Of a DNA stretch of 12,554 nucleotides, positions 4,582-5,371 are shown piece after piece. Within the stretch, counting starts at the first letter, position 1. Each line of letters begins with the position of its first letter. This DNA comes from a virus. Below the pieces are notes generated by a model. The model worked only from the letters and a program-made list of their open reading frames with translations. It ran no database searches and was not told the origin of the DNA. The DNA lies in UHGV virus genome UHGV-0141061; one strand, given 5' to 3'. A program made the translations under genes and the position numbers.

Positions 4582-5371
<790 letters not shown>

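What the first reader, a model, noticed from the sequence alone, without database searches (positions are those of the whole stretch)
4582..4600. Point differences from lambda at key operator and promoter positions (OR1, PR -10, OL2, OL3)
Relative to my recollection of lambda: OR1 reads TACCTCTAGCGGTGATA rather than TACCTCTGGCGGTGATA (base 4593); the PR -10 reads GATAGT rather than GATAAT (base 4583); OL2 carries the same G-to-A change (base 6376); and OL3 ends ...GGTGATG rather than ...GGTGATA (base 6365). The OR1 and OL2 changes affect the same consensus position in the highest-affinity sites, and the -10 change would weaken PR. These may tune repressor affinity or lytic promoter strength, or reflect selection on a non-inducible remnant.
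Basis: partly seen in the sequence, partly recalled or inferred. Interest (0 to 1): 0.4.

Follow-up and report, generated by a model that had tools for sequence, protein, structure and literature searches.

The report
Lambda-type switch variants in dead prophage
All four base differences from phage lambda are real, but three are ordinary natural variants of lambda-type operators with almost no effect on repressor binding, and only the fourth, a rare weakening of the lytic promoter PR, is specific to this crippled prophage.

Summary
All four differences from lambda NC_001416 are present at the stated bases (4583, 4593, 6365, 6376). They are of two kinds.

The OR1 G-to-A change is a common allele. 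It occurs in 91 of 120 IMG/VR contigs, in 177 versus 174 complete E. coli genomes, and in phages HK97, mEp234 and PhiR5_2. Measured cost to cI binding is 0.4 kcal/mol.

The OL2-A and OL3-G changes are a linked, low-frequency natural haplotype (19 versus 552 E. coli genomes). It travels with a widespread cI allele, including in intact-looking prophages.

The PR -10 change (GATAAT to GATAGT) is rare and derived. It is absent from 135 other lambda-immunity loci, 5,426 E. coli genomes and 50,697 phage records. It is the only difference from strain EC2641 across 2,201 bp, and is shared only with a sister contig and one gut-metagenome contig.

The window is a defective prophage with no N, replication, lysis or head genes, a split integrase and a nonsense tailspike, but an intact cI/cro switch.

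Among 17 near-identical copies of this module, 4 of 10 variable sites fall in PR/PL core hexamers, all in remnants. This hints at selection on lytic promoters but does not prove it.

Overall: ordinary, low interest.

The parts
3239..3742 (-). Truncated replication initiator (O-like, N-terminal 167 aa only). It abuts the Mnt/Arc gene, which marks a large deletion of replication, nin, lysis and head genes.
   Evidence: Pfam Phage_rep_O, residues 19-113. It covers 59% of a 276-aa homologue.
3923..4219 (-). cII-family activator gene (not the lambda allele), intact.
   Evidence: Pfam Phage_CII, 1.7e-33. Sequence compared with lambda cII.
4357..4557 (-). cro, intact, with 2 aa differences from lambda Cro (M12I, V55I).
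   Evidence: Pfam Cro, 8e-34; comparison.
4582..4587 (-). PR -10 hexamer GATAGT (lambda: GATAAT). The derived base is 4583, hexamer position 5 (-8), one base outside OR1.
   Evidence: It is absent from 120+12+23 other loci, from E. coli genomes and from phage records (control).
4584..4600 (-). OR1, TACCTCTAGCGGTGATA; position 8 G->A at base 4593.
   Evidence: Allele counts. ddG +0.4 kcal/mol.
4605..4610 (-). PR -35 hexamer TTGACT, unchanged here (mutated to TTGGCT in the sister contig L123).
4608..4624 (-). OR2, identical to lambda.
4623..4628 (+). PRM -35 hexamer TAGAAG (lambda: TAGATA); part of the haplotype.
   Evidence: 9-12 of 120 IMG/VR contigs; all 12 loci with the same cI.
4631..4647 (-). 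OR3, identical to lambda.
4658..5371 (+). cI repressor, intact, 237 aa. It has 4 aa differences from lambda (T3A, K71N, R129K, S157Y, Met counted as 1). The Ala-Gly cleavage site and the Ser/Lys catalytic motifs are present.
   Evidence: Pfam HTH_3 + Peptidase_S24. The exact protein is listed in 2600 blocks of the assembly collection.
5403..6165 (+). KilA-N / BstA-like gene in the position of rexAB, broken by an in-frame stop after codon 113 and a frameshift near codon 212.
   Evidence: tblastn against the 253-aa PhiR5_2 protein; Pfam KilA-N.
6171..6198 (+). Terminator-like hairpin plus T-run at the end of the cI operon (Timm position).
   Evidence: A corresponding Timm feature is annotated in mEp234.
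6349..6365 (+). OL3, AACCATCTGCGGTGATG; the last base is A->G (6365).
   Evidence: Present in 12 of 78 IMG/VR contigs; with OL2-A, in 19 versus 552 E. coli genomes.
6369..6385 (+). OL2, TATCTCTAGCGGTGTTG; position 8 G->A (6376).
   Evidence: Present in 14 of 78 contigs; linked to OL3-G.
6383..6411 (+). PL promoter, TTGACA-17-GATACT, unchanged.
6393..6409 (+). OL1, identical to lambda.
6480..6494 (+). P22-type nutL boxB-like hairpin GCGCTGACAAAGCGC, with no N gene downstream.
   Evidence: Sequence. tblastn finds no N; orf103 and RecT are truncated. The identity with P22 boxB is from memory.

Best explanation
The window holds a lambda-immunity-type switch (cro-PR/OR/PRM-cI ... OL/PL) inside a defective P22-like/lambdoid prophage next to sbcB. 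The four differences from lambda have two origins.

(1) OR1 position 8 G->A, OL2 position 8 G->A and OL3 position 17 A->G are standing alleles of the natural lambda-immunity population. They were inherited as a haplotype together with a widespread cI allele. They sit at the operator positions where cI binding is least sensitive, so they are close to neutral and leave immunity specificity unchanged. For OR1, lambda itself carries one of two roughly equally common alleles.

(2) The PR -10 change (A->G at -8, one base outside OR1) is a recent derived mutation on that haplotype. It puts a G:C pair into the all-A/T -10 element while keeping the critical -11A and -7T. It should therefore weaken PR but not abolish it (inferred), lowering Cro and cII output on derepression and biasing the switch toward the cI-on immune state.

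The mutation persists because the element has no lytic programme left to protect. Whether it was favoured or merely tolerated is open.
For: Identity of the module:
- The alignment with lambda shows three operators on each side with lambda's spacing.
- Pfam finds Cro, HTH_3+Peptidase_S24 and CII.
- cI differs from lambda at 4 residues and Cro at 2.

Operator alleles:
- OR1-A is in 91 of 120 IMG/VR contigs, which comprise 91 distinct 1.1-kb sequences.
- OR1-A is in 177 complete E. coli genomes versus 174 for OR1-G, and in HK97, mEp234 and PhiR5_2.
- OL3-G and OL2-A co-occur: 12 of the 14 OL2-A contigs also carry OL3-G. They are in 19 versus 552 E. coli genomes.
- All 12 loci encoding the identical cI carry OR1-A, PRM -35 TAGAAG and OL2-A, and 11 of 12 carry OL3-G. 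Several sit next to full replication, nin and N genes.

Binding cost:
- Experimental ddG for cI on OR1 is +0.4 kcal/mol for G10->A (position 8, non-consensus half) and +0.4 for A19->G (the position changed in OL3). The same position in the consensus half costs 2.5-2.7 kcal/mol (PMC2194778 Table 3).

The -10 change:
- EC2641 differs from window 4300-6500 at base 4583 only.
- There is no 28-mer match in 5,426 E. coli genomes or 50,697 phage records, while the T control matches 178 genomes.
- In IMG/VR only L123 carries it, and L123 is the same remnant (3 mismatches in 9,233 bp).
- One metagenome contig, L139, carries it.
- The promoter score drops from 10/12 to 9/12.

Remnant status:
- The O-like gene is truncated, and no N is found.
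- RecT is cut to 111 of 303 aa.
- The integrase is split by an IS3-family element.
- The tailspike is cut by a TGA codon that is TGG in L123.
Against: - No binding or promoter-activity measurement exists for these exact sequences. The 0.4 kcal/mol values were measured on OR1 with lambda cI and are only transferred by analogy to OL2 and OL3 and to this cI allele, which has T3A in the DNA-binding arm.
- Effects on Cro binding were not available.
- The control region differs from lambda twice as often as the coding DNA does (7% versus about 3.3%), which does not look like plain neutrality.
- The OL3-G/OL2-A haplotype is absent from all sequenced free phages, so its compatibility with a fully working switch is inferred only from intact-looking prophages.
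- The clustering of variable sites in PR/PL hexamers is hard to explain by simple tolerance.
Confidence: 0.75

Rival explanations
1. Selected disarming or retuning of lytic promoters in domesticated remnants. Once the prophage cannot make phage, expression from PR and PL after transient loss of cI is only a cost: cII and early-gene toxicity, or flipping to a Cro-dominated state that loses immunity. Mutations in the PR and PL core hexamers would then be positively selected, and the -10 change would be one such event.
For: - Among 17 sequences sharing this 2.1-kb module at >=99.8% identity, 10 sites vary and 4 lie in the 24 bp of PR/PL hexamers: 4583, 4607 (L123, TTGGCT), 6387 (L094, TTGAAA) and 6410 (L142, GATAAT). 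All four carriers are remnants; the intact-looking members L143, L145, L148 and L149 have none.
- The binomial P is 3e-6, or 1e-4 after dropping the base that prompted the study.
- L123 stacks a -35 change on the -10 change.
- 4583C occurs on two different remnant backgrounds whose nearest relatives carry T.
- The PR -10 hexamer is invariant in 120 diverse natural contigs, while neighbouring bases are polymorphic.
Against: - The counts are small and the events were not placed on a tree.
- One of the four changes (GATACT->GATAAT) strengthens PL rather than weakening it.
- Hexamer changes also occur in intact-looking prophages: L078/L085 (TTGGCA), L116 (TTGACC plus GATGCT) and L107.
- L123 and L139 were found by searching for the variant itself.
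- Some OL differences in the clade are known alleles, so they may have come in by recombination.
Confidence: 0.3
2. Co-adapted switch tuning. The operator alleles (OR1-A, OL2-A, OL3-G), the PRM -35 change and the cI allele (T3A in the N-terminal arm, which contacts the operator centre) evolved together to set a different repressor occupancy or induction threshold. On this view the differences are functional rather than neutral.
For: - The alleles travel as one haplotype with an identical cI protein in 12 of 12 loci, and OL3-G and OL2-A are tightly linked.
- The intergenic control DNA differs from lambda about twice as much as the coding DNA does.
- Three weak changes of about 0.4 kcal/mol each could add up through cooperative binding and OL-OR looping (inference).
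Against: - OR1-A is found with several cI alleles and with lambda-type OL sites, including in HK97, mEp234 and PhiR5_2. The codon-3 polymorphism (4664) is also not tightly tied to the OR1 allele.
- Linkage over 2 kb is expected from common descent alone.
- The measured single-site effects are at the bottom of the scale.
Confidence: 0.15
3. Artefact: the differences are sequencing or assembly errors, or errors in the reader's memory of lambda.
For: None found. L139 is a low-coverage metagenome contig (2.9x according to its name).
Against: Direct alignment with NC_001416 confirms the differences. The operator alleles recur in hundreds of independent genomes. The -10 base recurs in L123 and L139.
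Confidence: 0.02

Closest known systems
Phage lambda immunity region (cI, cro, OR1-3, OL1-3, PR, PRM, PL), NC_001416 35.5-38.3 kb
   Same: The layout, operator spacing and promoter positions are the same. OR2, OR3 and OL1 are identical. cI is 233/237 and Cro 64/66 identical in amino acids.
   Different: There are four operator/promoter bases plus PR +1, PRM -35 and two bases before the cI ATG. rexAB is replaced by a broken KilA-N/BstA-like gene. cII, nutL and everything outside about 4343-6450 are not lambda-like.
Wild phages with lambda immunity specificity (HK97, mEp234, HK106, HK544, HK244, HK542; GenBank EF120455-EF120461, Degnan et al. 2007 Mol Microbiol 64:232)
   Same: The immunity module is the same, at 95-96% DNA identity. 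HK97 and mEp234 carry the same OR1-A allele. The cI-to-N interval is variable, a known hotspot of mosaic diversity (PMC8585504 citing Degnan et al.).
   Different: Those phages have lambda-type OL2, OL3, PRM -35 and PR -10. They are complete, plaque-forming phages. The Degnan paper itself could not be read, so what it says about individual operator bases is not known to me.
Prophage modules with the identical cI protein in E. coli assemblies (e.g. strain HB37 CP053080, EC2641, 1008S19)
   Same: The OR/OL haplotype is identical apart from one base. EC2641 is identical over 2,201 bp except at 4583.
   Different: All of them have GATAAT at the PR -10. Several are flanked by full replication, nin and N genes.
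Defective (cryptic) lambdoid prophages of E. coli that retain a repressor, such as Rac, DLP12 and e14
   Same: This is a decayed prophage with IS insertions, deletions and pseudogenes that keeps an intact repressor gene.
   Different: The resemblance is in kind only and rests on general knowledge. No sequence relationship to those elements was tested.

Membership tests
Lambda-immunity (imm-lambda) switch | Three 17-bp operators at OR with lambda's sequences and spacing, overlapping the divergent promoters PR and PRM | tested here: met
   Alignment with NC_001416: OR2 and OR3 are identical, OR1 has 1 change, and there are no indels.
Lambda-immunity (imm-lambda) switch | Three operators at OL overlapping PL | tested here: met
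   OL1 is identical; OL2 and OL3 have 1 change each; PL is TTGACA-17-GATACT.
Lambda-immunity (imm-lambda) switch | cI repressor of the lambda type (HTH N-domain plus LexA-like S24 self-cleaving C-domain) | tested here: met
   Pfam HTH_3 and Peptidase_S24. There are 4 of 237 aa differences from lambda cI.
Lambda-immunity (imm-lambda) switch | Lambda-type Cro | tested here: met
   Pfam Cro, 8e-34. There are 2 of 66 aa differences.
Lambda-immunity (imm-lambda) switch | Functional immunity specificity: a lysogen is immune to lambda, and lambda cI represses this PR/PL | not testable with these tools
   This needs cross-immunity plating or reporter assays. It is inferred from operator identity and from HK97 and mEp234 sharing OR1-A.
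Phage lambda itself (Lambdavirus lambda) | rexA-rexB downstream of cI; lambda N/nutL, cII and O/P flanking the immunity region | tested here: not met
   There is a KilA-N/BstA-like pseudogene instead of rexAB, a non-lambda cII, a P22-type boxB-like sequence with no N, and a Mnt/Arc gene plus a P22-type tailspike head-binding domain.
Sigma-70 promoter (PR) | -35 and -10 hexamers 17 bp apart, with A at -11 and T at -7 | tested here: met
   TTGACT-17-GATAGT, 9 of 12 matches, versus 10 of 12 in EC2641 and lambda. Activity was not measured.
Defective (cryptic) prophage | Loss of the genes needed for excision, replication, lysis and virion assembly | tested here: met
   - O is truncated at 167 aa and directly joined to the Mnt/Arc-tailspike end of the map.
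- The integrase is split by an IS3-family element (9201-10435).
- RecT is cut to 111 of 303 aa, and N is absent.
- The tailspike carries a TGA codon at 1668-1670.
- Only 12.5 kb is visible, so genes elsewhere in the genome cannot be excluded.

The most novel reading that the evidence does not exclude
In prophage remnants that keep a lambda-type immunity module, the core hexamers of the lytic promoters PR and PL are recurrent targets of selection. The GATAGT change would then be one of at least four independent hexamer hits in near-identical modules, and may itself have arisen twice or spread by recombination between remnants. That would be a sequence-level signature of how bacteria domesticate a repressor switch.
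Probability: 0.3. Interest if true: 0.5.

Novelty: new member of a known kind. Interest (0 to 1): 0.2.

Why it matters
The lambda switch is the reference model of gene regulation, so it is useful to know which of its 'canonical' bases are merely one allele. Lambda's OR1 G at position 8 is one of two about equally common natural states. The natural polymorphisms at OR1, OL1, OL2 and OL3 fall on the positions that biochemistry found least important for cI. For this window the practical result is that the finding is ordinary and needs no special follow-up. The only lead worth a larger study is the apparent concentration of recent substitutions in PR/PL core hexamers of defective copies. If it holds up, it would give a simple, testable marker of prophage domestication.

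Tried and rejected
- The key paper on wild lambda-immunity phages (Degnan et al. 2007) is not held. Only citations to it could be read.
- Literature searches for GATAGT and for PR/PRM interference gave nothing usable. Cro binding data per base were not in PMC2194778.
- A scan of GTDB species representatives for the -10 variant found nothing.
- Three of the four IMG/VR hits to the 20-base variant pattern (L124-L126) are unrelated sequences.
- A first 2x2 test (hexamer mutated versus replication initiator intact: 5/0 versus 17/69) was rejected. The '0.48 coverage' class is a different but intact 315-aa initiator, and hexamer changes do occur in intact-looking prophages.
- A Dcm deamination hotspot as the cause of the recurrent position-8 G/A polymorphism was rejected. 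The contexts are CCAGA and CCAGT, not CCWGG (sequence). A bias from very-short-patch repair at CTAG/CCAG was considered but not tested.
- EC2641 was first reported as '100.0%' identical. Base-by-base comparison showed this was rounding that hid the single -10 difference.
- The whole window matches no complete E. coli genome over more than 49% of its length, so the source strain was not identified.

Full report
**What is at the coordinates**

The window runs opposite to the usual lambda map. The main features are:
- cro at 4357-4557 (minus strand);
- the PR/OR/PRM control region at 4558-4657;
- cI at 4658-5371 (plus strand);
- OL3, OL2 and OL1 at 6349-6365, 6369-6385 and 6393-6409;
- PL at 6383-6411.

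- PR -10 is GATAGT instead of GATAAT (4583).
- OR1 is TACCTCTAGCGGTGATA (4593).
- OL2 is TATCTCTAGCGGTGTTG (6376).
- OL3 ends GGTGATG (6365).

OR2, OR3 and OL1 are identical to lambda. The 100-bp control region differs from lambda at 7 positions. cI differs at 23 of 714 bases and cro at 7 of 201. At the protein level, cI has 4 changes and Cro has 2.

**What the element is**

Homology to lambda is confined to about 4343-6450. The rest of the window is a decayed P22-like/lambdoid prophage. From left to right it contains:
- an acyltransferase fragment;
- a tailspike with a P22-type head-binding domain, cut by a TGA codon at 1668-1670;
- a Mnt/Arc repressor gene;
- directly after that, a replication initiator truncated to its first 167 residues;
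- a non-lambda cII;
- the cI/cro switch;
- a KilA-N/BstA-like gene in the rexAB position, with an in-frame stop and a frameshift;
- a P22-type boxB-like hairpin with no N gene after it;
- a RecT gene cut to 111 of 303 residues;
- an integrase split by an IS3-family element;
- sbcB.

These assignments rest. No replication, nin, lysis or head genes lie between the O-like fragment and the Mnt/tailspike end, so the element cannot produce phage. The cI gene is intact and retains the cleavage-site and catalytic motifs. The exact cI protein is listed in 2600 blocks of the assembly collection.

**How common the operator alleles are**

The first sample was 120 IMG/VR contigs that carry an exact OR2 anchor. 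In it:

| Allele | Count |
|---|---|
| OR1-A | 91 of 120 |
| OL2-A | 14 of 78 |
| OL3-G | 12 of 78 |
| PRM -35 variant | 9-12 of 120 |

OL3-G and OL2-A nearly always occur together. The same position-8 G/A polymorphism also exists in OL1 (24 of 78).

The second sample was the complete E. coli genomes. I used short queries in which every 28-mer seed spans the diagnostic base:
- OR1-A matches 177 genomes and lambda's OR1-G matches 174.
- The OL3-G/OL2-A pair matches 19 genomes and the lambda-type pair matches 552.
- No record in the phage collection carries the OL3-G/OL2-A pair.

HK97, mEp234 and PhiR5_2 carry OR1-A with lambda-type OL sites. All 12 loci that encode the identical cI carry OR1-A, PRM -35 TAGAAG and OL2-A, and 11 of 12 carry OL3-G. 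Several of these loci are flanked by complete replication, nin and N genes. The three operator differences are therefore inherited natural alleles, not mutations of this element.

**Expected effect of the operator alleles**

PMC2194778 (Table 3) reproduces the Sarai-Takeda single-substitution free energies for lambda cI on OR1:
- G10 to A, which is the OR1 change, costs +0.4 kcal/mol.
- A19 to G, the position changed in OL3, costs +0.4 kcal/mol.
- Position 8 of the consensus half costs 2.5-2.7 kcal/mol, and several other positions cost more than 3.

The natural polymorphisms therefore sit on the least sensitive positions. Applying these values to OL2 and OL3, and to this cI allele, is inference. 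Cro data were not available.

**The -10 change**

- Window 4300-6500 differs from E. coli EC2641 at a single base, 4583. The search table had rounded this match to 100.0%.
- A query in which every seed must include 4583C finds nothing in 5,426 complete E. coli genomes or 50,697 phage records. The same query with T finds 178 genomes.
- None of the 120 IMG/VR contigs varies at any base of the PR -10 hexamer, although bases 1-7 positions away are highly polymorphic.
- An unbiased scan for the haplotype returns 13 IMG/VR contigs, and only L123 has GATAGT.
- L123 is the same remnant as the window, with 3 mismatches in 9,233 bp. One mismatch turns the PR -35 TTGACT into TTGGCT. Another is the tailspike stop codon, which is TGA here and TGG in L123.
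- One human-gut metagenome contig, L139, also has 4583C. It is a different remnant: cro is fused to the 3' part of an endolysin gene, and its right flank resembles the ybhC-site remnants, which carry T.

The change lies one base outside OR1, so it is a promoter change rather than an operator change. It lowers the consensus match from 10/12 to 9/12 while keeping -11A and -7T. I infer a moderate loss of PR strength. From memory of the lambda literature, a weaker PR should also relieve interference with PRM; this was not checked.

**Drift or selection**

Seventeen sequences share this 2.1-kb module at >=99.8% identity. Ten sites vary among them. Six lie in OR/OL DNA, and four lie in the 24 bp of PR/PL core hexamers:
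- 4583 (window and L123, PR -10);
- 4607 (L123, PR -35);
- 6387 (L094, PL -35 TTGAAA);
- 6410 (L142, PL -10 GATAAT).

All four carriers are remnants. The binomial probabilities are 3e-6, and 1e-4 without the base that prompted the study.

Several points argue against over-reading this:
- The numbers are small.
- One change strengthens PL.
- Some OL differences are known alleles that may have entered by recombination.
- L123 and L139 were found by searching for the variant.
- In the wider sample, hexamer changes also occur in intact-looking prophages: L078/L085, L116 and L107.
- A first association test was discarded because my reference set misclassified an alternative replication initiator.

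I rate selection on lytic promoters in remnants as possible (about 0.3) but unproven.

**Verdict**

Three differences are common or haplotype-level natural variants with minimal predicted effect, and lambda's OR1 base is one of two common alleles. The -10 change is a genuine, rare, promoter-weakening mutation in a prophage that can no longer grow lytically. The element is an ordinary member of the lambda-immunity family in a defective prophage, and its interest is low.

Noticed in passing
window 4575, 4623-4628, 4655-4657: The haplotype also changes the PR start base (+1 A to C), the PRM -35 (TAGATA to TAGAAG, which lowers its match to TTGACA from 4/6 to 3/6) and two bases just upstream of the leaderless cI ATG. 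All of these are shared by the 12 loci with the identical cI, including intact-looking prophages.
   Followed up: partly
window 5403-6165: The gene in the rexAB position is a KilA-N/BstA-like gene (253 aa in phage PhiR5_2). Here it has a stop after codon 113 and a frameshift near codon 212. The same 113-aa product is listed in 1970 blocks of the assembly collection, some next to complete early regions, so the short form may be more than a dead gene.
   Followed up: partly
window 1668-1670 (and L123): The tailspike gene is split into 409-aa and 343-aa ORFs by a TGA codon. The sister contig L123 has TGG there, so this is a very recent nonsense mutation.
   Followed up: yes
L123 (position equivalent to window 4607): The sister copy of this remnant has a second PR mutation, -35 TTGACT to TTGGCT, on top of the -10 change.
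   Followed up: yes
L094 (window-equivalent 6387), L142 (6410), L116, L078/L085, L107: Other lambda-immunity copies carry core-hexamer changes in PL or PR: PL -35 TTGAAA and TTGGCA, PL -10 GATAAT and GATGCT, and PR -35 TTGACC. Some are in remnants and some are in intact-looking prophages.
   Followed up: partly
window 6400 equivalent in IMG/VR loci; also 4593 and 6376: The same position-8 G/A polymorphism (CCAG versus CTAG on the complementary strand) recurs in three operators (OR1, OL2, OL1) across the natural population. The contexts are not Dcm sites. A bias from very-short-patch repair at CTAG/CCAG is conceivable but was not tested.
   Followed up: no
window 6480-6494 and 6558-7090: A P22-type boxB-like hairpin (GCGCTGACAAAGCGC) follows PL, but no N gene is present. 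A deletion joins this region to the last 63 codons of a 103-aa ORF, and RecT is cut to 111 of 303 residues.
   Followed up: yes
window 8447-10965: The integrase next to sbcB is split by an IS3-family insertion (transposase ORFs at 9201-9596 and 9554-10435). That insertion is 97% identical to an IS copy in strain EC2641.
   Followed up: partly
window 7561-7761: A 66-aa ORF in the PL operon matches the DNA polymerase III theta subunit family (PF06440, 1e-10), like the HOT protein of phage P1.
   Followed up: no
L139 1045-1380: In a gut-metagenome relative, the first roughly 57 codons of cro are fused in frame to the C-terminal part of a lambda R-type endolysin, followed by an Rz-like gene. This is a different deletion that also left the cI/PR module in place.
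   Followed up: partly
L002, L129/L144, L133/L147, L137, L138, L142, L146, L150, L151: The same near-identical cI-KilA-N module sits in differently decayed prophages at several chromosomal sites (argW/dsdC, ybhC and sbcB regions). This suggests either repeated decay of related phages or movement of the module by recombination.
   Followed up: no
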